Source: a virus
Lineage: Duplodnaviria > Heunggongvirae > Uroviricota > Caudoviricetes
Virus record (IMG/VR): IMGVR_UViG_2617270960_000003
Span: 1-45,189 of that record
Direction: 5' to 3' (one strand)
DNA: 45,189 nucleotides
Part shown: positions 4,160 through 43,816 of the stretch, piece by piece
How positions within the stretch are numbered: position 1 is the first letter of the stretch
How the letters are laid out: every line of letters starts with the position of its first letter
The notes under the pieces: generated by a model
Databases searched by the model: none
The model's input: the letters and a program-made list of their open reading frames with translations, nothing else
Told to the model about the DNA's origin: nothing
Position numbers and translations under genes: made by a program

Positions 4160-4386
4160 AATTACCTCTCGCTTTTCTGCAATAAAAAAGGCGCCATTTC
4201 TGACGCCCGTTATGGGTTATAAAATTCAGCTGATACTGATACCAGCGGTGGATTTCTTCATCACCACAACCAGCAAATCGCTGATACTGGCTGTGGGATC
4301 CAGTCATTACCACCCATGAAGACACCGAAAACGCCAGCGTCAGGTCCCCTGACCAGCAGGCATATCAATAACACACGAAAATAAGC

Positions 4387-7300
4387 CTAGCATCCAGCGC
4401 GGACGGTTAAAAATCTCAGACCATTGCGCGTCACTATCAACCGGCAGGACGAATAAATATCGTTATTCTCCCGCTCATGTTTAGCGCCGCAGAATGCCAC
4501 CGCTGGAATAACAATTTGCCTGTCAAAAGGCTGATCGTCATAAATCCTGACGGTGATGGTGCCACTGGCATAAGTGCCCGTCCGCGGGAAAGACTTACCC
4601 ACCGTTTTGACAATATCGCCTTCAATCTGATTGGCTGACAGTTTCCCCTTAATCTGACAGTTCTCATTAATCGTGACGTTGTTGAGCGTCCCGGAGTTCG
4701 CATTCACACTGCCACTGATATCCGCATTTTTAGCAGTCAGCTTTCCGTCCGGTGTCAGGGAAAATGCCGGTGGATTTCCACCGCTGGTAATGGTGGGGGC
4801 CGTCAGGCGTTTCAGGAACACGTCGTTCATGAATATCTGATCGCCCTGACCAACAAACATCGGTTTTGTGTTGCCATTCGCAGGATTAACCATCGCAATC
4901 CTGTCCGCCGCCAGCAGCACCTGACTCTGCATGCCGTCAGGGGTGTTCTCAATACCGACACCAATACCCGCGATATAAAGGCGTCCGTCCTGCATCTGCT
5001 GCAGCTTCACAGCCCACATGCTGTTCAGGTTATTATTTGTATCAACCTGAACCTTCTGTATCTGCTGAATTGCCGCACTCTGGTCTTCCAGTTTCTTATT
5101 GACGGTCTGCGTGATTTCATTGCTGACATCCGTAATGGACGTCCTGATTTCAGCCAGGTCAGGCGCAAGCTGACCGTTATCAATCTGCGTCCACAGCTCC
5201 TGAGCCAGATGGGTTTTCCCTATCTCGCCTTTGAAAAAATCCAGATAGCCGGATGCATCATCGCTCGCCCGACCGACGGCCTCCACAAATGCCGATTTGC
5301 CTACGGTGTTCACACTGCGGGTATAAAAGTAATAATCATGGCCCGGTTTGATATTGATACTGGCGGCTATCCAGTACAGCGCCGTACCAAGATAGCGGGC
5401 TGTGGTTTCAACCTGCCTGATATCCGCAATCCGCTTTTCCGAGAACCAGAACTCAAACTGTACCGTCGGATCATAAACCGCAAGATGCGGCGTGGCGGTT
5501 ATCTGAAAATAGCCCGGCGTCAGCTCAATCCGCGACGGCGCTGCCGGTGCGGCGATCCGGAACAATACCGATGCCGGATCGCCCTGCTGTCCCCATGCAT
5601 TTACCGCCCGGACTGTCAGCGTGTACCGCCCCAGCGCCAGCTGCGTGAAGCGATATGTGGTTTCCGTCGTCCGGGCCGTGCTGACCAACCGCTCACTGCC
5701 GTCGTCCGCTGCCACGGTCAGGCGCAGACTGAAGCGCACGCCCTTCACCACCCGCGGCGTGTCCCATTTAGCCTGCGCCAGATACTGGCCGTCAGCTGCG
5801 CTCACCTCCACCGTCAGGTGCTGTACTGCCGGTGGGATGACGCTGTTCAGGGAGCCTGACTGCGGCTCAAAGCGGGCACCGTTATCCACGATGGCTTCTT
5901 TTTCCGGTACGTGCTGCACCGCCGTGATGGCAAAGGTGCCGTCCGTGTTTTCCCGGATGGAGACACAGCGGAACAGGCGACGGCGCAGTGACGGCAGGGA
6001 GAGTCCCCACACCCCGTATGTCTCCACACCATCAGGCAGGGTACTGACCTGTATCCGGTCCGGCGCGGGGTGTTCGGTGATGTCCACACTCACCGGCTTA
6101 CCGCTGCCGTTAATCAGGTTCACCGTGGCGGCACCGGTCTCCGGCAGGGTAACCTCACGGTCCAGCGTCAGGGTGCGGGTGGCAGCATCAATGGACAGGA
6201 CACGTCCGCCGGTCAGGGTCCCGGCATAGTCATTATCACAGATTTCAATAATGTCACCGGGTGTGTGCCGCAGCCCCTGAGACCCGAGCGTGAAATCCAC
6301 CGTCTGCGTTTCCAGCAGTTCGGTCTTTATCACCCACAGTCCGGCACGGTGGGCCTGACCGCGGCTGGTACAGCCGAACGCGTCCATCTTCAGCAGATTG
6401 CGCCCGTAGCGCAGTATGGCTTCCGGGTCTTCCACCAGTTCCGTGGAGGTCTGCCAGCCGTTCTGCGGGTCGGTGTAATTCACCTCCACCGCCGTGTGCC
6501 GGTCCTTCAGGGCACTGAAGCTGTAGCGGAACCCCACGCCGTTATCATCCACCACCACATCGCTGTTGGTGTACGGCCACACCACATCCGACAGGCGGTC
6601 CTGAACAAACGTCAGCATCTGGCCGTTCCATACCGGCATACAGCGCATCGCCGAGCAGAAATCACTGAGAACATCCCACGCCTTACGCTGTTGTGCCAGG
6701 TACGCATTGAAGGTCATCCGCGGCTCGGTGCCCCCGAAGCCATCCGGCACCATCTGGTCGCAGTACTGCCCGATGGCATACAGCGCCCACTTGTCCACAT
6801 CCGCCGCCCCCAGACGTTTTCCCATGCCGTAGCGCGGGTGAGTCAGCATGTCCCACAGACACCAGGCCGGATTGTTGCTGTATGCCGGTTTCAGACTGCC
6901 GTCCCAGATACCACTGTACGTGCGTTTTTCCGGGTCATAGTTTGACGGCACCTGGATGATGCGACCGCGGATATGGTAGTTCACCGTCATCTGCTGACCA
7001 CCAAACTGCTCCGCATCCACCTGCATCCCCACAATGGCCGTGTTCGGGTAGCACTGTTTCACATCGATGATTTCGGTGTATGACGACCACAGCGTTCTGT
7101 TCTGCAGCTGGTCCGTGGTGCTGTCCGCCGTCTCCCTGACCATCCGGATGTTAAAGGGGCGGGGAGGCAGATTATCCAGAATCACCGAGGCCAGGAACTG
7201 TGAGGTGGTCTTGCCGTTAATGGTGACATCCTTTTCTGTCACCCAGTTACCGTTACGCTGTAACTGAATCAGCAGACGGACAGAGGACGGATTACGGTCA

Positions 7301-7683
7301 CCCTTTGACGTGGTCTCCACCAGTGACTGCACCCCGAAGGTCACCCGCAGGCGGTCAATGTTCGCTGACGTAATGGTGCGTGTTACCGGTTTTGCCCTGG
7401 TCACTTCGACACCCAGTACAGTTTCAGAGCCGGAGGACTCAAAGCCTTCCGGTGGTATCTGCTCCTGCTCCCCGGCACGCCAGACCGCGGTCACACCGTG
7501 TATCACGGGATTACCGTCCGTGTCCGTCAGCGGGGTTTTGTTCACCAGAATACTCTGCAGGCCTTTCACCGGGCCTTCTATCGGTCCCTCACCAATCGCA
7601 TCAATCACGCTCATCATCTGCGTGGATTTGAGATTGTCTTTCGCCTCACGCGGTGTGTGCGCCTTGCCGCCACCTTTGCCCAT
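4387..7683 (-). CDS. J: tail tip host-specificity protein J, 1098 aa; 3' end appears frameshifted or truncated
   Basis: ORF track; near-collinear with lambda J from [22 protein letters not shown] onward; ORF ends about 60 codons short, with J-like C-terminal peptides in the other two frames of 4160-4386. Confidence 0.85.
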
Positions 7684-7923: not shown

Positions 7924-8604
7924 TTATCCCTGTCGCCCGATAACCACGACCTTTCCGCCCCCGCCTTCATCACGGGTGCTGATGTCCTGGGATATACGGC
8001 GGGAGCCAACCAGCATTTCCCCGTAAGGCACCGGCATCGGGTTCCCCTGGGCAATCATGTTATCCAGCGAGGAAAAGTACGTGTTCTGTCTGCCGTTATC
8101 CGTTGCGCGGTAATCCGGTGTTTTTGCCTTCGGGGCCAGCATCTGGGCCACACCGCCCAGAATCATGCTGGCTCCAAGTGAAAACAGCATCGTGGTGGCA
8201 GAAAAACCACCGGCTGCCAGGGCTGAACCCCATAACGCCATTGATGCCCCGGCAGTGAAGAAAGAGCCCACGATGGCTGCCGCCCCCAACACAATCTGCA
8301 GTCCACCCTTTCCGGCCCCGGCCAGTCGCGGCACAATGTGGATGACCGTTCCCTCACCCAGCTGTTCGTGAAGGCGGGCGTACACCACCTCCGGTGCCGT
8401 GTCTTCACCGGCAATACGTATCTGGTACCAGCCTTCGTTCATCTGACGGCGAAAGCCCGGCATCTGCATCGACAGGGCGCGGATGGCTTCCGCTGCCGTG
8501 TTCACATACAGGCTGAGGCGGCGGCCAAATCGTTGCAAATCCCCGTGAAGGCAGATGTGTGCCAGTGGCGGTGACGCCAGACAGAATGCGTTCGTCGTTG
8601 CCAT
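7924..8604 (-). CDS. I: tail assembly protein I, 226 aa
   Basis: ORF track; LASP...ICLHGDLQRFGRR...AIRAL...GWYQIRIAG and C-terminal NTYFSSLDNM match lambda gpI as recalled. Confidence 0.85.
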   Translation of the reverse strand: MATTNAFCLASPPLAHICLHGDLQRFGRRLSLYVNTAAEAIRALSMQMPGFRRQMNEGWYQIRIAGEDTAPEVVYARLHEQLGEGTVIHIVPRLAGAGKGGLQIVLGAAAIVGSFFTAGASMALWGSALAAGGFSATTMLFSLGASMILGGVAQMLAPKAKTPDYRATDNGRQNTYFSSLDNMIAQGNPMPVPYGEMLVGSRRISQDISTRDEGGGGKVVVIGRQG

Positions 8605-9245
8605 TTTTCGGAATACCTCTCCCGTTTACTCAGTTGTTCAGGAATATGGTGAAGCAGTTCACCGTTGCCGCAGTAAATGGCGGCATGATTAGCCACCGAT
8701 GCGCCGAAGCAGCACAGCAGGATATCGCCCGGCTGTGCAGAGGACAGGGGCACCCGGTAAAAGCCGGTGACCGCCATATTGTCCAGGTACAGGTTCTGGC
8801 CGTTGCGCCACCAGTCATCCTCGCGATGAAAATCCGGCATATCAATTCCCGCCAGATGGTATGCATCCCGGAACAGCGTGTAACAGTCCGTCACCCCGTG
8901 CTCAAAGCGCCGTCCTGTCAGATGTGGCACACAGCGGAATTTATGAATTTCCCCCCGGCAGACCAGCCACCAGGGTAGTGCGCTTTTTATCTGCAGCCGC
9001 CGGTCAGCCTCGCTCAGCCAGGGCAGCTCACCGGGATGACTGTGGACCAGTGCCACAATCTCCCCCTGCATCTCTGCCCGCAGCCAGTCTTCCGGTGCGA
9101 TACGAAAATACGCCTCCGGCTCTGCGGAAATATTCACACAAGGGATATACCGCTCCCCCTCCGGCGTGCTTATCACGAAGCCGCACGACTCCGCAGGCGC
9201 ACACCGCCGGGCATGCGCCAGAATCGCTGATTCAGTCTGTGTCAT
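8502..9245 (-). CDS. K: tail assembly protein K (MPN/JAB plus NlpC/P60-like), 247 aa
   Basis: Homology starts at internal ATG (9243-9245): MTQTESAILAHARRCAPAESCGF...HSHPG...; the upstream 87 codons of the 334-aa track ORF have no K homology; 3' end overlaps I. Confidence 0.8.
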   Translation of the reverse strand: MTQTESAILAHARRCAPAESCGFVISTPEGERYIPCVNISAEPEAYFRIAPEDWLRAEMQGEIVALVHSHPGELPWLSEADRRLQIKSALPWWLVCRGEIHKFRCVPHLTGRRFEHGVTDCYTLFRDAYHLAGIDMPDFHREDDWWRNGQNLYLDNMAVTGFYRVPLSSAQPGDILLCCFGASVANHAAIYCGNGELLHHIPEQLSKRERYSEKWQRRTHSVWRHRHWHTSAFTGICNDLAAASACM

Positions 9246-9255
9246 AAACCGGGAT

Positions 9256-9954
9256 TTACTGCGAAAGTTTATTAATGGAAAGGAAACCGCCAAAATTGCC
9301 GACATTCCTGCGCAGTTCACACCCGCGCATGCACTTGCTGCATCTGTCCTTACGGATATCCGTGGTGGGTTTATCGAACTCATCCGCCACAGCCCCGCCC
9401 GTGTAACCACACTCATCAGAGCGGTAGGTCCACATACAGGTGTTCGCCAGCATGATACGACCGGGAAACTGAGCTCCGTCCGTCTCGGTCGGTGTGGCCA
9501 GCACAAACGAGGCCGTCATGGCTGTCAGCTGCGACATCTGCTCCACCACTCAGCGGTCGCTCAGCTCCTGCTCCGGGTCCGCTTCCGGATTGCCCGCCAC
9601 AAAATTCACCGCATCCAGAAAACGGGCATACACCCGGCGGCGGACCACCGTGGCCCCCACCAGACTCTGCAGGTCTTCCGCCATCCCGGTGACAAGGCCG
9701 AACAGATTGGACACCGTCAGCGACGGTCTGGCACTGCTGCCTTTCCCGTTCATTTCAAAGCCGCTGCCATCAATCGGGTACGCCTCATACTTACGCCCCT
9801 GCCAGGTGACCGGCTCCCCTTTTTCATTCAGCTCATTACAGAAAAAATACCGCTCACCACCCTGTACCGTCAGGTCGATTTCCCAGAGTACCACCCGCGG
9901 TGACTGCTCTGACTTAACCGACTCGTTCAGACTTTCTTCGCGAATATCCTGCAT
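9256..9954 (-). pseudogene. L: minor tail protein L interrupted by in-frame opal stop (TGA at 9550-9552 in place of Trp)
   Basis: Track ORFs 9550..9954 and 9256..9549 are in the same frame and adjacent; together they read ...ADPEQELSDR*VVEQMSQLTAMTASFVL versus lambda L ...ADPEQEVISRWRIEQCSELSAVSASFVL. Confidence 0.8.
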
Positions 9955-10283
9955 CAGTTCACCACCTGCTTAAACTCCGCGCTGAACTCAACGCGCAACA
10001 TCCCGACCCGCGCAGACCACCCGGCACAGGTCACCTTTATCTGCCGGTATGCATAGGGTGGCTTCCACAAAAATGCCTTCCAGCCACCGTGCTCTGCCAG
10101 AAACGACTCCAGCGCCGTGGCCTCCTCACGGGAGACAGACAGCGTCACGCTGTACGTTTTCAGGTCAGCGTTCAGCCCGGCAGGCGCACGCTGGGAATAG
10201 CCATCACCAAAGCGCACCTCCCTGACGGAAGGAGCCGATGTCACATCCATCCCGGGTTTCACTTTCCAGCGGAAGGTTTTCAT
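9954..10283 (-). CDS. M: minor tail protein M, 109 aa
   Basis: ORF track; size and position between H and L as in lambda. Confidence 0.85.
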   Translation of the reverse strand: MKTFRWKVKPGMDVTSAPSVREVRFGDGYSQRAPAGLNADLKTYSVTLSVSREEATALESFLAEHGGWKAFLWKPPYAYRQIKVTCAGWSARVGMLRVEFSAEFKQVVN

Positions 10284-20961: not shown

Positions 20962-22873
20962 TCACTCCTCCGGACAGCTTCGCTGCCAGTTCTTTAAGGG
21001 TTGGCCGGGTCGTCTCTTCTTCCCGGGATTTTGCCAGTACAGCCAGATCAAGCTGCCAGCGTTGCACGGACACACGTAATGCCGCGTAGGCATACACCAG
21101 GCAGTCCAGCGCTTCGTTACGCCGCTTTTTGTTATCCCACAGCAGACGCATCTTTCCTTTTTCCCACTTCTCCACAAGCTCTTCCGCGACCAGTTGCTGC
21201 GCCTCTGTCTGCGAAAAAATCTCCGGATCATCAGGAAAACGGATGGCATACGACGTGGCTTCATCCGCAGGCGTGGGCTCGGCTTTCATACGGGCATAGA
21301 GAATTTCTTTTGCGGTGTCCGTCCCCACTTCACACAGATAAACGCCCCGCTGATTGCGGGTTTTCGGCATGGTGATCACCGGCTTGCCATAGACAGACGC
21401 GCCTTTTACCGGCAGCACACGGAAAACACCGTGTTTTTTTGACCTCTGGTAGACGATTTCACCATCGATCCCCCCGGTGTCCCAGCAGACACGGGAAATG
21501 GTCATTTCGGTGCCATCCGCATGGCGGTATTTTTTGTTGATCGCCGCATCCACACGTAACAGCGTCTCTTCCTCATCGGGACGTCCCATAATGATGATTT
21601 TATCCACCAGAAAGGCTTCCTCTCCCGGAGCCCATCCCCAGACATACATCTCAAAACGGTTTCGCTGCGAGTCAATGCCCGCCGTCAGATAAACCACCCG
21701 GGCAGGCACCGCCGCCGTGTAATGAACAACCTTATCCATCAGTACCTGGTGATCGAGTTTTTCGCCCACGGCCTCTTCCCAGGTCTCGCCCAGCGTGGTG
21801 TTCACAAAGGTTTTCAGGCCGTTGGGATCTTTCAGTGCATCCAGCCAGTCATAGACAATCTGTACCCAGGTGGTGAACGGACTGTACGCCGTCCAGATAT
21901 GGAATGTGATGGAGCGCGGCGGCGGAATTTCATTATCCGCGGCGCTGAAAAACGTCAGACCGTCGCGGGTCCACATCCCCGTGTTTTCGCAGATCCACCG
22001 CCCGTTGCTCTGGTCAAGCTCAGACTGATGGATCACGCAGCCATGATGTTCACAGAGGTAGAAAACGCTTTCGGGGCTGTCCTTCTCCCATTTAAGGCCA
22101 AAAGGCGTGGACTCATCGCCAAATTTCAGATACTGCGCCTCCCCACAGTGCGGGCAGGGCACATAAAAACGCATGAAATGCGCCGACTCGTTGGCCGCTT
22201 TTTCGATCTGGCAGGAGCCTTTTATTTTAGGCGTCGAGCCGCGAATGGATTTTGGCCATACCGAGCCCTCAATACGCTTATCCCCCAGCAGGGTTGGCGA
22301 GCCCTCTTTTTCGACATCCGGCTCGAACGAGGAAAGTTCGTCATAGCAGACCACGTCCACGGATTTTTCACGGTAGTTTTTTGCTGCCGCACCACCCAGG
22401 CACCAGAAGCCCACCCCCGATGAAAAGCGTTTCAGCGTGAGAGTATTGTCACGATGTTTACGACCCAGCCACGGGGAAAGATCTTTCAGGCATGGCACGT
22501 CCCGAATCGTCGCCTCCACGTGAGACTTCATAAAATCTTCAGCGGCAGAATCCGTGGGCTGAAAAAGCAGACTGTTTCGGGATTTATGCTCAATAAAATA
22601 CCCGGCGACTCCCAGCAACATCTTTGTATAGCCAACACGGGCAGATTTAATCAGATTAACAGTGCGGATCTGATCATTCCCCATACTGTTCATGATGGCG
22701 ATCTGGAACGGCAGCGTTTTCCATTCGCCGTCACCGTATGAGGATTCTTTCGGCAGATAATAATACTGGTCAGCCCATTCAACTGCCGTCATCGGTACAA
22801 CCCTGACCAGAGGCTGCAGCGCAACCGAAACGGCGGCCACCATATTATTCAGTTGTTGCTCTGATATATTCAT
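20945..22873 (-). CDS. A: terminase large subunit A, 642 aa from internal ATG
   Basis: Homology to lambda gpA starts at MNISEQQ (ATG 22871-22873); strongly collinear (TAVEWAD.YYYLPKES...); the 19 upstream codons of the track ORF lie inside Nu1. Confidence 0.9.
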   Translation of the reverse strand: MNISEQQLNNMVAAVSVALQPLVRVVPMTAVEWADQYYYLPKESSYGDGEWKTLPFQIAIMNSMGNDQIRTVNLIKSARVGYTKMLLGVAGYFIEHKSRNSLLFQPTDSAAEDFMKSHVEATIRDVPCLKDLSPWLGRKHRDNTLTLKRFSSGVGFWCLGGAAAKNYREKSVDVVCYDELSSFEPDVEKEGSPTLLGDKRIEGSVWPKSIRGSTPKIKGSCQIEKAANESAHFMRFYVPCPHCGEAQYLKFGDESTPFGLKWEKDSPESVFYLCEHHGCVIHQSELDQSNGRWICENTGMWTRDGLTFFSAADNEIPPPRSITFHIWTAYSPFTTWVQIVYDWLDALKDPNGLKTFVNTTLGETWEEAVGEKLDHQVLMDKVVHYTAAVPARVVYLTAGIDSQRNRFEMYVWGWAPGEEAFLVDKIIIMGRPDEEETLLRVDAAINKKYRHADGTEMTISRVCWDTGGIDGEIVYQRSKKHGVFRVLPVKGASVYGKPVITMPKTRNQRGVYLCEVGTDTAKEILYARMKAEPTPADEATSYAIRFPDDPEIFSQTEAQQLVAEELVEKWEKGKMRLLWDNKKRRNEALDCLVYAYAALRVSVQRWQLDLAVLAKSREEETTRPTLKELAAKLSGGVNGYSR

Positions 22874-23351
22874 CCAGCAAATCCGGTAATTTATCCCCTG
22901 CCCGCGCACACTGATTTGCGCCCTTTGCAATAAGGGTTTTCAGATGGTCAATATGACGTGGCGTTAAATCCGGGAACTGTCGCTGCATGGATAACGGAAT
23001 GGAATCAAGCGTACTGGACAATGCCATCGCCAGTTTGCTGAGGGCGAAAACGCAGAAGTCTGAATCGATGAGCTTACCTTCGGTTACCTGATTTTTAAGT
23101 TTTTGAGCTACAGCCTGTTCTTCTGTCAGTTCAGCTCTGGCCCGAAGCAGCCTTTCCTCCAGTTCTCCCCCGTCATCAGGTGTTCTCTGATTGTGTTGTC
23201 GCCGCTCGCGATCTATCTCCAGTACAGTTTTAACGTCATATAAAACTTCCCTCCCCCGACGTTCAACAGGAGGAACGCCCCATTTATCAAATGCCTGAAC
23301 AGAGATACCGATGGAGGAGGCCATATCACTTTTATTCAATAAAAAGGCCAT
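22845..23351 (-). CDS. nu1: terminase small subunit Nu1, 168 aa from internal ATG
   Basis: GGAGAGGAG upstream of ATG at 23349-23351; ...GREVLYD...FCVFALSKLA...LDS.PLSMQRQFPDL..RHID.LK matches lambda Nu1; overlaps A start as in lambda. Confidence 0.8.
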   Translation of the reverse strand: MAFLLNKSDMASSIGISVQAFDKWGVPPVERRGREVLYDVKTVLEIDRERRQHNQRTPDDGGELEERLLRARAELTEEQAVAQKLKNQVTEGKLIDSDFCVFALSKLAMALSSTLDSIPLSMQRQFPDLTPRHIDHLKTLIAKGANQCARAGDKLPDLLDEYIRATTE

Positions 23352-23567
23352 CTCCTCTCCATAAGTCATCGATAAAAAGCGAAACAACAACCATGTGTTT
23401 TTGCAAAACCATTTGATATCATTGACATTTTTCGCATTGACGACATCAAAACACATCGTAAGGTTGTTGTATTTATTTTATTTTCACCTTACTTATCAAT
23501 TAGATATACCAAACAATTAAACAACAACCACCCCCTCAAAAAATCTCATAAATAGTGAAAACGCGCG

Positions 23568-23802: not shown

Positions 23803-24870
23803 ATGAGTCAACATCAATATTATCCACAGCTGAAATGGAAGCCTGCTGAATATGAATCTCTGATGCTTTTAGATCAAACTACGCTCTCTGGTTTTACTCC
23901 GATCATTACCATTCCAGACATAGACTGGGATTATGAAAACGAATGCTACAAGAAGAGTTTGAGTTCTTACTTATCTGACTTCGGTATTAACCTTGCGGCA
24001 TCCTGGAAAGCCAATCGTCCTGTTTTGCTGGATGTTAAATATTTAGATAAACATGGTTCGAGCCGCCATCATCCTCTAGATATGTGTATCCAAGATGCTA
24101 GAGTAAATGGTAAGGAAATTATCCCTGTTGTTTCTCCCGCATATTCAACAAACTATATACATGCTGTTCAACGCAACTTAATCAATGGGCTCGCTATATC
24201 TATCACCCCCCAGACATGGCACCAATTCACAAGTCTGGTTAACCACTTAAATATTCATCCTAGTTTAATTGATGTAATCATTGATTTTGGAGATATTCAA
24301 AACGCAACTGATAGTTTAAAACAACAAGCATTAAGCATGGTCAACACATTATCAGGCCAAGCTCCGTGGAGAAACTTGATTTTATCTTCAACCGCATACC
24401 CGGCATCACAGGCAGGGATACCGCAACATCAAGTTCATCATATTCCGCGCCATGAATACGATCTTTGGATGTACGTAGTACAGAATTTTAGCAATGGAAG
24501 AACGCCAAGTTTTAGTGATTATCCCACCGCTAGCTCTACCATTACGAGCGTAGACCCACGCTTCATGTCTCAGTATGTCTCAGTGAGATATTCGAACGAT
24601 ACCTCATGGATCTTTGTAAAAGGTACCGCAGTTAAAGGAAATGGATGGGGCCAAACTAAAAACTTATGTACTACCCTTGTTAGTTCGCCAGAGTATCAAG
24701 TCTTTGGCTCCAAATTTAGTTGGGGGGATGATTACATTTACCAAAGATCATTAGGCGCTAACAAATCTGGCGGCTCTAAAGAATGGCGTAAAGTTGCACA
24801 TACGCACCATATTACGTTAGTCGTGAGACAGCTTTATTGGTTGGCGCAGACTCAGCCTGCCAAGCCTTAA
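23803..24870 (+). CDS. hypothetical protein, 355 aa; AT-rich cargo gene at the bor-equivalent locus
   Basis: ORF track; AAGGAG 7 nt upstream of ATG; low GC unlike the flanking phage genes; no confident homolog recalled. Confidence 0.6.
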   Translation: MSQHQYYPQLKWKPAEYESLMLLDQTTLSGFTPIITIPDIDWDYENECYKKSLSSYLSDFGINLAASWKANRPVLLDVKYLDKHGSSRHHPLDMCIQDARVNGKEIIPVVSPAYSTNYIHAVQRNLINGLAISITPQTWHQFTSLVNHLNIHPSLIDVIIDFGDIQNATDSLKQQALSMVNTLSGQAPWRNLILSSTAYPASQAGIPQHQVHHIPRHEYDLWMYVVQNFSNGRTPSFSDYPTASSTITSVDPRFMSQYVSVRYSNDTSWIFVKGTAVKGNGWGQTKNLCTTLVSSPEYQVFGSKFSWGDDYIYQRSLGANKSGGSKEWRKVAHTHHITLVVRQLYWLAQTQPAKP

Positions 24871-25432
24871 CTTTCCAGCCTACGCGTTTCTTTAAGGCTG
24901 TTCTGACTTCAGGCCTGAGATTCGCTATTGGAATATTTTCCGCAATAATATTCCATAACTCAAATCGGGGCTTGCTTTTGATTCCTTTGGAATAGCCCCA
25001 TCGTTCAAGTACGTCGATACATTCATCTTTCCAAAGCAATTGAGCGAGCATCAATGTGTCATGGTTTCGATTAAGCTTTTCTCCACGCATGTGCTTTATA
25101 AGAATGGCGCCTTTTGGCCCAACAGAAACCGTTTTAACGCCCCACCAACCTGGGATTAACTTTAATGCTCCCTCAAGGTGTTTCTCAGCTACGACAAGAG
25201 TAACCTTGTCCATTACAGAAGAATAATGCTTGATTTGAAGAGGCAAACGCTCCAAAGAGTCATATTCACTTTTGAGCTCGTACCCGTGTATAACACCATT
25301 TATTACAGCAATGTCTGCTCTACTGGCGCCAAGGGATATGGAAAATTCATCGACCACAAGGCAGTCTGGATCTAAATGCGATTCTTTCAAAAGCTTATGA
25401 TGCACCGCGAACCTAACATCTTGATCTTTCAT
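24812..25432 (-). CDS. hypothetical protein, 206 aa; possible PD-(D/E)xK-type nuclease fold; cargo partner
   Basis: ORF track; AAGGAGA 4 nt upstream of ATG; D...E.K pattern in VVDEFSISLGASRADIAVINGVIHGYELKSEYD; 3' end overlaps the convergent 355-aa gene by 59 bp. Confidence 0.55.
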   Translation of the reverse strand: MKDQDVRFAVHHKLLKESHLDPDCLVVDEFSISLGASRADIAVINGVIHGYELKSEYDSLERLPLQIKHYSSVMDKVTLVVAEKHLEGALKLIPGWWGVKTVSVGPKGAILIKHMRGEKLNRNHDTLMLAQLLWKDECIDVLERWGYSKGIKSKPRFELWNIIAENIPIANLRPEVRTALKKRVGWKVKAWQAESAPTNKAVSRLT

Positions 25433-30027: not shown

Positions 30028-30060
30028 GGAGTTTACTCACATCTGACAAAATCAATATAA

Positions 30061-30300
30061 ACAGCCCCTCCGGAGAGGGGCTGGAGAGTGGCGCTATGTG
30101 CCATTGCATGGTGCCGGGTGCCTCCCGGTGAATTCAGTACCAGCACCTGAATCCGCGATTATCCCATATACCTACTCGCTGATTGCCCCTCCGCACAGGG
30201 GGATTCACCATGCGAAATTTTTTAACAAACTTCCCGCTGGCCAGACAATAATCGCCAGCCTGAATTATGAGCAACGTAGCATTTTACGGGAAAACTGTTT
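30061..30300. repeat. copy 1 of a diverged ~240-bp direct repeat beginning with hairpin AGCCCCTCCGGAGAGGGGCT
   Basis: Shared blocks with copy 2: agcccctccggagaggggctg, gcatggtgcc.ggtgcctcccggt.aattcag, gggggattcaccatgcga, ttttaacaaa, cagacaat. Confidence 0.6.
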
Positions 30301-30520
30301 TCTGCAGTAAAAAGGCCCGCCGGAGCGAGCCTGGAAGGATAGCGGTCATGTGATGCCGGTTTCCCGGTAACTCAGCATCGGTATCTGAGTCAACGTTTTC
30401 TCTACTGGGTCATTTCCGATACGTTCCGCCTTCCGGCAGACTTTCATCACGTCAGAAAATATAGCACCCTGAGTAACAGGACAGTACTCAGAATTCAGGA
30501 AACTGTGACACATCCTGCAC

Positions 30521-30760
30521 AGAAAAGCCCCTCCGGAGAGGGGCTGAAGTATAGCCTAATTTCTGTCTGTCGCATGGTGCCAGGTGCCTCCCGGTAAATT
30601 CAGCCTGTCTACTGAATTTGCATGTTCTCTGGATCATACACTTTGCCAGATGCCCCGCCGCTGAGGGGGATTCACCATGCGATGTAATTTTTAACAAATT
30701 CTCCGGCAGCCAGACAATCATCAAGCTGTGGAATTGTGAGGTATTTAAAAATTTCAACGG
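30521..30760. repeat. copy 2 of the diverged ~240-bp direct repeat
   Basis: Same shared blocks as copy 1; on the minus strand each hairpin is followed by a T-rich run (terminator-like). Confidence 0.6.
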
Positions 30761-30975: not shown

Positions 30976-31052
30976 TGGACCGCCATCGAGAACTCGAACC
31001 CCGCGCAACCAGCTTCGAAGGCTGGCGCTCTATCCCGATGAGCTAATGGCGG
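30976..31052 (-). tRNA. tRNA-Arg (anticodon UCG)
   Basis: Hand-folded cloverleaf: acceptor CCGCCAT/ATGGCGG, D-stem GCTC/GAGC, anticodon stem CCAGC/GCTGG with loop CTTCGAA, T-loop TTCGAGT (T-stem has two G-U pairs), 3' CCA. Confidence 0.6.
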
Positions 31053-31059
31053 TATGTGA

Positions 31060-31135
31060 TGGTGGCCCTTGCTGGATTTGAACCAGCGACCTGGCGATTA
31101 TGAGTCGCTCGCTCTCACCACTGAGCTAAAGGGCC
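31060..31135 (-). tRNA. ileZ: tRNA with CAU anticodon, ileX/ileZ-like (tRNA-Ile2 or Met)
   Basis: Minus-sense GGCCCTTTAGCTCAGTGGTGAGAGCGAGCGACTCATAATCGCCAGGTCGCTGGTTCAAATCCAGCAAGGGCCACCA; canonical cloverleaf; near-identical to E. coli ileX as recalled. Confidence 0.8.
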
Positions 31136-35507: not shown

Positions 35508-35663
35508 TTACTCCTCAGGTTCGTAAACTGTGAAGACAGCGACCTCCGTCTGGCCGGTTCGGATTCGTACCTCGCAGAGGTCTTTCCTCGTTACCAGTAC
35601 AGTCACAATGACGGTTAAACAGATGACGATCAGGGCGATTAACATCGCCTTTTGCTGCTTCAT
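35508..35663 (-). CDS. hok: Hok/Gef family type I toxin, 51 aa
   Basis: MKQQKAMLIALIVICLTVIVTVLVTRKDLCEVRIRTGQTEVAVFTVYEPEE is near-identical to HokD/RelF as recalled. Confidence 0.85.
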   Translation of the reverse strand: MKQQKAMLIALIVICLTVIVTVLVTRKDLCEVRIRTGQTEVAVFTVYEPEE

Positions 35664-35899
35664 AGCCTGCTTCTCCTTGCCTTTCGGCACGTAAGAGGCT
35701 AACCTAGATTTGCCGTTCATAGATTGAGCCTCAGATTAATGTTAAGCGTCTTGCAGGACGCATAATGTTAACTGTGGCTTTTCTCTATCTGCCTTTGGTG
35801 TTCATGCTTGAGGCAGATAGCCTCAAGCACCCGCAGCAATTTTACTTAACTCCCCTTTTCCCACAAATCGTTTTTATCCCTATTGGTAATGTTCTCCCG

Positions 35900-43248: not shown

Positions 43249-43816
43249 TAGCTAACCAACGAAGCTAAGGTTGGTAATTAAGGAGTTCTCCACGGGTGAG
43301 GTGGAGTGCGTGCGCCGGACACGGGTGAGCATCCGGCACTGACAGTTTACTGAAAGGATATTTCCCTGAAAAGTCAGACCATAACGCGAAAGCGCACGGC
43401 GAGGTAGCTGGTTCATAGATAGCCTGTCGTTAAATTTTCGTCGACCGTGCGCTTCCGGTTGTGGCAATCCGCGAAATGGCGCGGCGGTAAGTATGGCGGG
43501 GTTATTCCTTCCACCGTTGAGGACACTGGGTTGTCAGGTTGACCATACGCTTAAGTGACAACCCCGCTGCAACGCCCTCTGTTATCAATTTTCTGGTGAC
43601 GTTTGGCGGTATCAGTTTTACTCCGTGACTGCTCTGCCGCCCTTTTTAAAGTGAATTTTGTGATGTGGTGAATGCGGCTGAGCGCACGCGGAACAGTTAA
43701 AACCAAAAACAGTGTTATGGGTGGATTCTCTGTATCCGGCGTTAATTGTTAACTGGTTAACGTCACCTGGAGGCACCAGGCACTGCATCACAAAATTCAT
43801 TGTTGAGGACGCGATA

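What the first reader, a model, noticed from the sequence alone, without database searches (positions are those of the whole stretch)
9550..9552. In-frame opal stop splits tail gene L
The two track ORFs covering L are adjacent and in the same frame, separated only by TGA where lambda L has Trp (TGG). A single transition would inactivate L unless opal read-through occurs, so the prophage is probably tail-defective.
Basis: partly seen in the sequence, partly recalled or inferred. Interest (0 to 1): 0.5.

Follow-up and report, generated by a model that had tools for sequence, protein, structure and literature searches.

The report
Nonsense-mutated prophage tail gene L
A lambda-like prophage in an E. 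coli gut isolate carries a real, recent single-base change that turns a conserved tryptophan codon of the essential tail-tip gene L into a stop codon; this is ordinary prophage decay, not a new mechanism.

Summary
On the minus strand, gene L (window 9256-9954, a homologue of lambda gpL) has TGA at codon 135 (window 9550-9552). Lambda and every other L homologue I examined have TGG (Trp) there. The closest intact allele differs by only this base and one synonymous base.

The change is not an assembly error. The identical TGA allele is in two NCBI assemblies, which are two colonies from one stool sample (E. coli 3-020-07_S1_C1 and _C3). It is also in two independent Logan re-assemblies of SRA runs.

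The allele is private to these isolates. It has no exact match in 5,426 complete E. coli genomes, IMG/VR or JGI metagenomes. The TGG version of the same 39-mer occurs in at least 120 IMG/VR contigs.

The stop removes about 30 residues of the hub (HDI) domain and the whole 4Fe-4S domain with its four Cys ligands. There is no suppressor tRNA, no SECIS element and no unusual RNA structure nearby.

Best reading: a recent loss-of-function mutation that leaves the prophage unable to build tails by itself. At most, a trace of wild-type gpL could arise from Trp-tRNA read-through of UGA. In this contig the 3' end of J also looks frameshifted, but that is unconfirmed.

Interest is low.

The parts
9256..9954 (-). 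Gene L, a lambda gpL homologue (tail-tip hub protein). It has 232 codons and is interrupted at codon 135, so it is a pseudogene as written.
   Evidence: It is 77% identical and colinear to lambda gpL (PDB 8iyk_L, E=3e-125). It is 99.7% nt identical to intact alleles annotated 'phage minor tail protein L'.
9550..9552 (-). Premature opal stop TGA at codon 135. Relatives have TGG (Trp). The mutated base is window 9550 (+ strand T, relatives C).
9553..9954 (-). 5' fragment of L, codons 1-134. It encodes most of the N-terminal HDI beta-sandwich domain.
   Evidence: PF05100 profile positions 3-103. Domain limits come from PMC10721106.
9256..9549 (-). 3' fragment of L, codons 136-232 plus the native TAA. 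It encodes the end of the HDI domain and the 4Fe-4S domain, with Cys173, Cys182, Cys205 and Cys212 all still intact in the DNA.
   Evidence: PF05100 profile positions 109-206. Cys ligands are from PMC10721106.
9535..9537 (-). In-frame ATG (codon 140) preceded by GGAG three nt upstream. Gene callers start the 93-aa C-terminal ORF here. It is a possible but untested re-initiation site.
   Evidence: sequence GTGGTGGAGCAGATG.
9472..9472 (-). The only other difference from the nearest intact L allele (nt 483). It is synonymous.
9954..10283 (-). Gene M (distal tail protein), intact.
8502..9245 (-). Gene K (JAB/NlpC-P60 tail assembly protein), intact. Its ATG lies 10 nt after the L stop and has no obvious Shine-Dalgarno sequence.
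7924..8505 (-). Gene I (tail assembly/insertion protein), intact.
4226..7683 (-). Gene J (central tail fibre). The ORF stops early at 4387 (1098 aa; relatives have 1157-1158 aa). The last ~65 codons are scrambled by six 1-2-nt deletions at about 4420, 4403, 4375, 4350, 4309 and 4300. A remnant of the normal stop sits at 4226-4228. This lesion is seen only in this contig.

Best explanation
This is a real, recent, lineage-private nonsense mutation in the essential tail-tip gene L of a lambda-like prophage of E. coli 3-020-07_S1 isolates. It is a G->A transition, TGG(Trp135)->TGA. Translation by RF2 ends after residue 134. The product lacks the last ~30 residues of the HDI hub domain and the entire C-terminal 4Fe-4S domain, so it cannot form the gpL/gpJ ring that caps the tail. 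On its own the prophage should make heads but few or no functional tails, which makes it a defective prophage at an early stage of decay. Shown: the mutation, its reality, its rarity, and the intactness of 21 other head and tail genes. Inferred: loss of function and tail-less particles.
For: (1) The mutation and its identity.
(2) It is not an artefact. The identical allele is in 2 NCBI assemblies and 2 Logan re-assemblies of SRA reads. It is a substitution, not a homopolymer indel.
(3) It is private and recent. There are 0 exact matches among 1,760 places for this 55-mer in 5,426 complete E. coli genomes; the best are 1 mismatch away. There are 0 matches in IMG/VR and JGI metagenomes, against >=120 IMG/VR contigs for the TGG version. 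Only one other, synonymous, difference separates it from the nearest intact allele. The strain names show two colonies of one sample.
(4) Trp135/TGG is present in all other homologues checked, at 77-100% identity and including lambda.
(5) What is lost: HDI domain residues 1-166, Fe-S domain residues 154-232, and ligands Cys173/182/205/212. gpL is a trimeric structural hub in the virion (PMC10721106; PMC11101478).
(6) Nothing rescues it in cis. The only tRNAs are Arg(UCG) and a CAT-anticodon tRNA. No Rfam recoding element lies near the stop. The downstream RNA is no more structured than shuffled sequence (z=+0.69).
(7) Interrupted L genes are a common background. About 8 of ~109 complete L loci in IMG/VR are internally disrupted, and other split L calls carry different lesions.
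(8) Established knowledge, not tested here: lambda L sus mutants make no active tails (Katsura, tail assembly pathway).
Against: No expression or virion data exist. UGA is the leakiest stop codon. Its natural read-through uses Trp-tRNATrp (PMC10570021), which would restore the exact wild-type protein. Only 3 gpL copies are needed per virion, so the phenotype may be leaky rather than null. All other structural genes are intact, and the part of L downstream of the stop carries no further damage. That fits a very young pseudogene, but it equally fits a gene still under some selection. gpL from another resident lambdoid prophage could complement in trans; the median is 2 L copies per E. coli genome that has any.
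Confidence: 0.8

Rival explanations
1. Leaky opal. Near-cognate Trp-tRNATrp reads UGA often enough to make a little wild-type gpL, because Trp is the original residue. Only three copies are needed per tail, so the prophage would still release infectious virions at a much reduced burst.
For: UGA read-through arises from competition between Trp-tRNATrp and RF2, and stop-codon read-through runs at about 1e-3 to 1e-2 (PMC10570021). gpL is present at 3 copies per virion. Sequence downstream of the stop is undamaged and all four Cys ligands are retained. The allele is shared by two colonies whose distal tail regions differ.
Against: Natural, non-K-12 E. coli carry RF2 with Ala246. This terminates better, and read-through products were undetectable in that background (PMC5373646). 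The stop is not conserved in any relative. There is no stimulatory structure. At 0.1-1% read-through only a few gpL molecules per cell are expected; this is my inference.
Confidence: 0.12
2. Sequencing or assembly error. The true sequence would be TGG and L would be intact.
For: The allele is unique to one set of draft assemblies from 2014. Another part of the same contig, the J 3' end, looks like a possible consensus artefact.
Against: The identical TGA is in two separately sequenced colonies and in two assemblies made by a different pipeline directly from SRA reads. The change is a clean substitution. The surrounding 15 kb is identical between the two assemblies.
Confidence: 0.03
3. Split gene. 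Ribosomes terminate at UGA and re-initiate at the adjacent GUG (codon 136) or at AUG140, which has a GGAG three nt upstream. The 134-aa and 93-97-aa fragments would then assemble non-covalently into a working gpL.
For: A start codon lies immediately after the stop, and an SD-like GGAG precedes AUG140. Gene callers annotate both halves as proteins.
Against: The break lies inside the HDI beta-sandwich (residues 1-166), not at a domain boundary. No relative is organised as two genes; all others have TGG. Other 'split' L calls in the databases are frameshifts, N-gaps or a different nonsense mutation, not a recurring architecture. The SD spacing of 3 nt is poor.
Confidence: 0.03
4. Programmed recoding, with UGA read as selenocysteine or as a regulated read-through signal.
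For: None beyond the presence of an in-frame UGA.
Against: There is no SECIS or other Rfam element. No structure is more stable than shuffled sequence. The homologous residue is Trp, not Cys or Sec, in all relatives. The stop is not conserved.
Confidence: 0.01

Closest known systems
Bacteriophage lambda gpL (tail tip/hub protein L; PDB 8IYK, 8K35, 8XCG; Pfam PF05100)
   Same: Same length (232 codons), colinear and 77% identical. Same gene order H-M-L-K-I-J. All four Fe-S cysteine ligands are conserved in the DNA.
   Different: Codon 135 is TGA instead of TGG, so only residues 1-134 are expected to be made.
Classical lambda L nonsense (sus/amber) mutants
   Same: A premature stop in L. The expected phenotype is heads without active tails in a non-suppressing host. 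This is established phage genetics and my own knowledge; it was not re-tested here.
   Different: This is a spontaneous opal allele in a wild prophage, not a laboratory amber. Opal is intrinsically leakier, and read-through inserts the original Trp.
Defective or cryptic lambdoid prophages of E. coli (e.g. Rac, Qin, DLP12; the many defective prophages of O157)
   Same: A prophage carrying point lesions in morphogenetic genes while keeping immunity and accessory genes. The window has a RacR/YdaS/YdaT-type immunity region, dicB/DicF and hokD/sok.
   Different: Decay is at a much earlier stage. Twenty-one other head and tail genes are full length, and there are only one or two lesions.
Lambda PaPa stf frameshift
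   Same: A tail-gene lesion fixed in a propagated lineage (mentioned in PMC10721106).
   Different: stf is dispensable for plaque formation. L is a core structural component.
Programmed UGA read-through (e.g. Qbeta A1 protein)
   Same: UGA decoded by Trp-tRNATrp at a low percentage is the same chemistry that could leak here. The Qbeta example is from my own knowledge; the tRNATrp/RF2 competition is.
   Different: There the stop is conserved and the extension is functional by design. Here the stop is private to one lineage and interrupts a conserved domain.

Membership tests
Phage_tail_L / lambda gpL family (PF05100) | Sequence match to the family profile across the whole domain | tested here: met
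   The N fragment matches profile positions 3-103 (E=1.7e-48). The C fragment matches positions 109-206 (E=1.4e-36). The intact relative matches positions 3-206. Against PDB 8iyk_L the match covers 1-232, E=3e-125.
Phage_tail_L / lambda gpL family (PF05100) | Four conserved Cys ligands of the C-terminal [4Fe-4S] cluster (lambda C173, C182, C205, C212) | tested here: met
   All four are invariant in the alignment. The ligand list comes from PMC10721106. They lie downstream of the stop, so they are encoded but not expected to be translated.
Phage_tail_L / lambda gpL family (PF05100) | Synteny within the tail-tip module (H, M, L, K, I, J) | tested here: met
Phage_tail_L / lambda gpL family (PF05100) | Uninterrupted reading frame giving a ~232-aa protein (a functional member) | tested here: not met
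   There is an internal TGA at codon 135. The locus is a member by descent but a pseudogene as written.
Prophage pseudogene (mutational decay) | A disabling change relative to otherwise near-identical intact orthologues | tested here: met
   2 of 699 nt differ from the intact allele, and one of them creates the stop.
Prophage pseudogene (mutational decay) | The allele is confined to a narrow lineage and not conserved | tested here: met
   It is found only in the two 3-020-07_S1 colonies and two SRA runs. It is absent from 5,426 complete genomes, IMG/VR and JGI metagenomes. The TGG control gives >=120 hits.
Prophage pseudogene (mutational decay) | Further lesions in the same element | tested here: inconclusive
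   The J 3' end is frameshifted in this contig. This is not seen in the sister assembly (J is 1158 aa) or in any other assembly. All other structural genes are intact.
Programmed stop-codon read-through | The stop codon is conserved at that position among relatives | tested here: not met
   All other homologues have TGG.
Programmed stop-codon read-through | A stimulatory sequence or structure downstream | tested here: not met
   The fold z-score is +0.69 against shuffles. No Rfam family comes near its threshold.
Programmed stop-codon read-through | A measurable full-length product | not testable with these tools
   This needs a reporter assay, Western blot or MS.
Selenocysteine recoding | A bacterial SECIS hairpin just 3' of the UGA, and Cys/Sec at the homologous site in relatives | tested here: not met
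   (the residue is Trp everywhere).
Phage-encoded nonsense suppression | A suppressor tRNA (anticodon UCA) in the element | tested here: not met
   The only tRNAs in the window are tRNA-Arg(UCG) and a CAT-anticodon tRNA. The rest of the host genome was not available.

The most novel reading that the evidence does not exclude
The opal allele is not dead but is a tolerated 'attenuated' state. Natural Trp-tRNATrp read-through would regenerate wild-type gpL in trace amounts. Because only three copies are needed per virion, the prophage would remain transmissible at very low burst. This would explain why the same allele sits in two co-resident colonies whose distal tail modules differ.
Probability: 0.1. 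Interest if true: 0.3.

Novelty: already known. Interest (0 to 1): 0.1.

Why it matters
It matters little beyond annotation. The two ORFs, deposited as separate 'phage minor tail protein L' proteins, should be annotated as one pseudogene. This prophage should be scored as probably defective in prophage-inducibility or transduction predictions for these isolates. It is a clean example of the earliest step of prophage domestication: one point mutation in an otherwise intact 20-kb morphogenesis module. It is also a textbook case in which opal leakiness would restore the wild-type residue. Neither point opens a new question.

Tried and rejected
**Assembly error.** Rejected. The allele is present in two NCBI assemblies and two Logan re-assemblies.

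**A recurrent 'split L' architecture.** I looked up the exact 134-aa and 93-aa products in 153 billion gene positions.
- Apart from the two 3-020-07 isolates and their SRA runs, every other hit was something else.
- These were a contig-end partial (L005, L007, L014, L015), a 1-nt deletion (L009, L012), an N-gap (L011) or a different nonsense codon (L013).
- Every one of these that covers codon 135 has TGG there.

**Contigs L005/L007 ending exactly after 'TG' of codon 135.** I considered this as a hint of a G/A fork in other genomes. It is equally explained by a k=33 offset from the variable sites at nt 371-372, so it does not count as evidence.

**Selenocysteine, recoding RNA or suppressor tRNA.** Nothing was found.

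**Are colonies C1 and C3 one clone or two strains sharing a phage?** I tried to settle this in two ways.
- The portal look-up returned only unrelated complete genomes, because the protein is in >3,000 blocks.
- Look-ups of the window's lom, J and 57-aa ORF returned only this contig.
- The question is therefore unresolved.

**Literature on the isolates.** Searches by accession and by strain name found nothing. The Tam et al. 2013 gpL Fe-S paper is not held, so it is cited only through PMC10721106. A search for E. coli fourth-base context data for UGAG gave nothing usable, so I make no quantitative claim about context strength.

Full report
**What is in the sequence**

The window is NCBI contig JNRP01000032.1 (45,189 bp, assembly GCA_000704745.1). 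It is a lambda-like prophage read from the side tail fibre (left end) to the early-left operon (right end), with the morphogenesis genes on the minus strand.

Window 9550-9552 is 'tca' on the plus strand, which is TGA on the minus strand. Translating 9256-9954 (-) gives 232 codons with a single internal stop at codon 135...PEQELSDR*VVEQMSQL....

**Identity of the gene**

The two fragments hit complementary halves of one Pfam domain, PF05100 Phage_tail_L: profile positions 3-103 with E=1.7e-48 and positions 109-206 with E=1.4e-36. An intact relative hits positions 3-206 in one piece.

With the stop read through, the protein is colinear with lambda gpL over all 232 residues at 77% identity. It matches the solved lambda 'Tail tip protein L' (8iyk_L and four further entries) at E=3e-125. 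Flanking genes are in the lambda order H, M, L, K, I, J.

**The mutation**

The closest intact allele is in E. coli 120899 and a dozen other mostly ETEC-type genomes, annotated 'phage minor tail protein L' (WP_001355911.1). It differs at just two of 699 positions:
- nt 405, G in relatives and A here (window 9550), which turns TGG (Trp135) into TGA;
- nt 483 (window 9472), which is synonymous.

Lambda itself has TGG at this codon, as do all other homologues I could extract, spanning 77-100% identity.

**Is it real?**

The exact 134-aa product and the exact 93-aa downstream product were looked up in the public assembly index. The full L gene with TGA is identical in four places:
- this contig;
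- JNRQ01000006.1 (GCA_000704765.1, a 210-kb contig);
- a Logan assembly made independently from SRA run SRR1186460;
- a Logan assembly made independently from SRA run SRR1186795.

The source names of the deposited proteins are E. coli 3-020-07_S1_C1 and 3-020-07_S1_C3, which are two colonies from one sample. A clean substitution seen in two sequenced colonies and by two assembly pipelines is not an assembly artefact. Only a read pile-up, which I cannot make, would be more direct.

**How widespread is it?**

It is not widespread.
- A 55-mer centred on the TGA has no exact match among 1,760 matching places in 5,426 complete E. coli genomes. The best matches are one mismatch away.
- A 39-mer with TGA has zero matches in IMG/VR and in the JGI metagenome collection.

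Other database entries in which L is called as two pieces have unrelated causes: 1-nt deletions, an N-gap, a different nonsense codon or contig ends. Wherever codon 135 is present in them, it is TGG.

The allele is therefore private to this lineage. With only one additional synonymous difference from the nearest intact allele, it is also recent.

**What the stop removes**

In the lambda virion gpL is a trimeric hub protein. [quoted passage not shown] Its C-terminal domain (154-232) holds a [4Fe-4S] cluster ligated by Cys173, Cys182, Cys205 and Cys212 (PMC10721106; PMC11101478).

All four cysteines are conserved in this gene but lie downstream of the stop. Termination at codon 135 would therefore delete part of HDI and the whole Fe-S domain. 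From classical lambda genetics, L nonsense mutants make no active tails; this is my own knowledge and was not re-tested here.

**Is there anything that would rescue it?**

Nothing in cis was found.
- The window encodes only tRNA-Arg(UCG) and a CAT-anticodon tRNA, so there is no opal suppressor.
- Rfam finds no SECIS or recoding element near the stop.
- The 80 nt around and after the UGA fold no better than shuffled sequence (z=+0.69).

What remains is ordinary leakiness. UGA read-through in E. coli results from competition between Trp-tRNATrp and RF2, and stop-codon read-through runs at about 1e-3 to 1e-2 (PMC10570021). Because the original residue is Trp, any read-through recreates wild-type gpL, and only three copies are needed per virion.

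Against this, non-K-12 E. coli carry the more active RF2 (Ala246). In that background, read-through products were undetectable (PMC5373646). I therefore expect a severe defect that may not be absolute.

A second possibility is termination followed by re-initiation at the adjacent GTG, or at ATG140, which has a GGAG three nt upstream. This could yield a C-terminal fragment. However, the break is inside a beta-sandwich and no relative is organised that way, so a functional split protein is unlikely.

Trans-complementation by another resident lambdoid prophage cannot be assessed from this contig. Among genomes that carry L, the median is two copies.

**State of the rest of the module**

I compared 23 reference proteins from a close relative (STLEFF_47) with the window. 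Twenty-one head and tail genes other than L and J give uninterrupted matches: 19 over essentially their full length, plus A from residue 6 and the side tail fibre as collinear pieces. Nu1 is a divergent type (30% identity). The relative's tail fibre assembly gene gave no match. L has its one stop.

J aligns in frame for residues 1-1091 and then falls apart. Six deletions of 1-2 nt at about window 4420, 4403, 4375, 4350, 4309 and 4300 scramble the last ~65 codons, and a remnant of the normal stop sits at 4226-4228. The C-terminus of J is the receptor-binding part (PMC11101478), so if this lesion is real it is a second, independent tail lesion.

Caution is needed. The broken J, the adjacent 57-aa ORF and this lom variant occur in no other assembly, including the Logan ones. 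The indels are not homopolymer-type and are tightly clustered. That pattern could be a consensus artefact of collapsed paralogous prophage sequences.

The sister assembly is identical to the window over 14,996 nt (portal to most of J, zero differences). It then diverges from about window 4955 leftwards, and it has an intact 1158-aa J and a different tail fibre. In that assembly the L stop is the only interrupted gene called within the ~20 kb retrieved.

**How ordinary is this?**

Very ordinary. Of 120 IMG/VR loci carrying this L allele family, 100 have an uninterrupted L. About 11 are cut by contig ends and about 8 are internally disrupted by frameshifts or stops. The protein clusters around the two fragments contain hundreds of partial L entries. 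Point-inactivated morphogenesis genes are the expected first step of prophage decay.

**Verdict**

- The interpretation, a single transition that inactivates L and leaves the prophage probably tail-defective, is supported.
- The allele is real, recent and private.
- No recoding mechanism is indicated.
- The only mildly interesting open point is whether natural opal leakiness, which would restore the native Trp, leaves residual infectivity. I give that about 10%.

Interest is low (0.1). The phenomenon is already known.

Noticed in passing
window 4226-4600 (minus strand, 3' end of J): The J ORF ends at 4387 (1098 aa; relatives have 1157-1158 aa). Six clustered 1-2-nt deletions at ~4420-4300 scramble the receptor-binding C-terminus, and there is a 12-nt in-frame loss at ~4581/4566. 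This is seen only in this contig, so it may be real decay or a consensus artefact.
   Followed up: partly
window ~4955 leftwards vs L003 (JNRQ01000006.1): The sister colony's prophage is 100% identical over 14,996 nt (portal to most of J, including the TGA). It then switches to a different J C-terminus, lom and tail fibre (923 aa + tfa). This is either recombination of the host-range module or assemblers joining different resident prophages.
   Followed up: partly
window 23803-24870 (+) and 24812-25432 (-): A convergent gene pair is inserted between the small terminase and the lysis genes. One is a 'beta family protein' (PF14350) that hits PADLOC PD-Lambda-2_C/beta models (E=4e-32). The other is an sce7726/P4-cII-like protein that hits PADLOC 'cll' (E=4e-31). 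This is a candidate anti-phage defence moron.
   Followed up: partly
window 30053-30241, 30517-30710, 35658-35832, 43591-43642: Rfam finds two copies of sRNA STnc100, a sok antitoxin RNA (next to a hokD-type toxin in relatives) and DicF. These are typical Qin/Rac-like accessory RNAs.
   Followed up: no
window 30976-31135 (minus strand): There are two phage-borne tRNAs upstream of the late region: tRNA-Arg(UCG) and a CAT-anticodon tRNA. ARAGORN calls the second one Met, but a close relative annotates it as tRNA-Ile. Neither is a suppressor.
   Followed up: no
window 22857-23456 (minus strand): The small terminase subunit (Nu1) is only ~30% identical to that of the relatives whose other head genes are 93-100% identical. 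M (9954-10283) is only 89% identical. Both are local mosaic replacements.
   Followed up: no
L005 (ABIDTK010000093.1) and L007 (DBFGNT010000244.1), contig ends: Several unrelated assemblies have contigs that end exactly after 'TG' of L codon 135. This could reflect an assembly-graph fork at nt 405. It could equally be a k=33 offset from the variable sites at nt 371-372. It was not used as evidence.
   Followed up: partly
window 8502-9245 / 9246-9258: The K start codon lies 10 nt after the L stop and has no recognisable Shine-Dalgarno sequence (…CAGTAAATCCCGGTTTATG). K translation may therefore depend on ribosomes arriving through L. If so, the premature stop could also lower K expression. This is inference only.
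   Followed up: no
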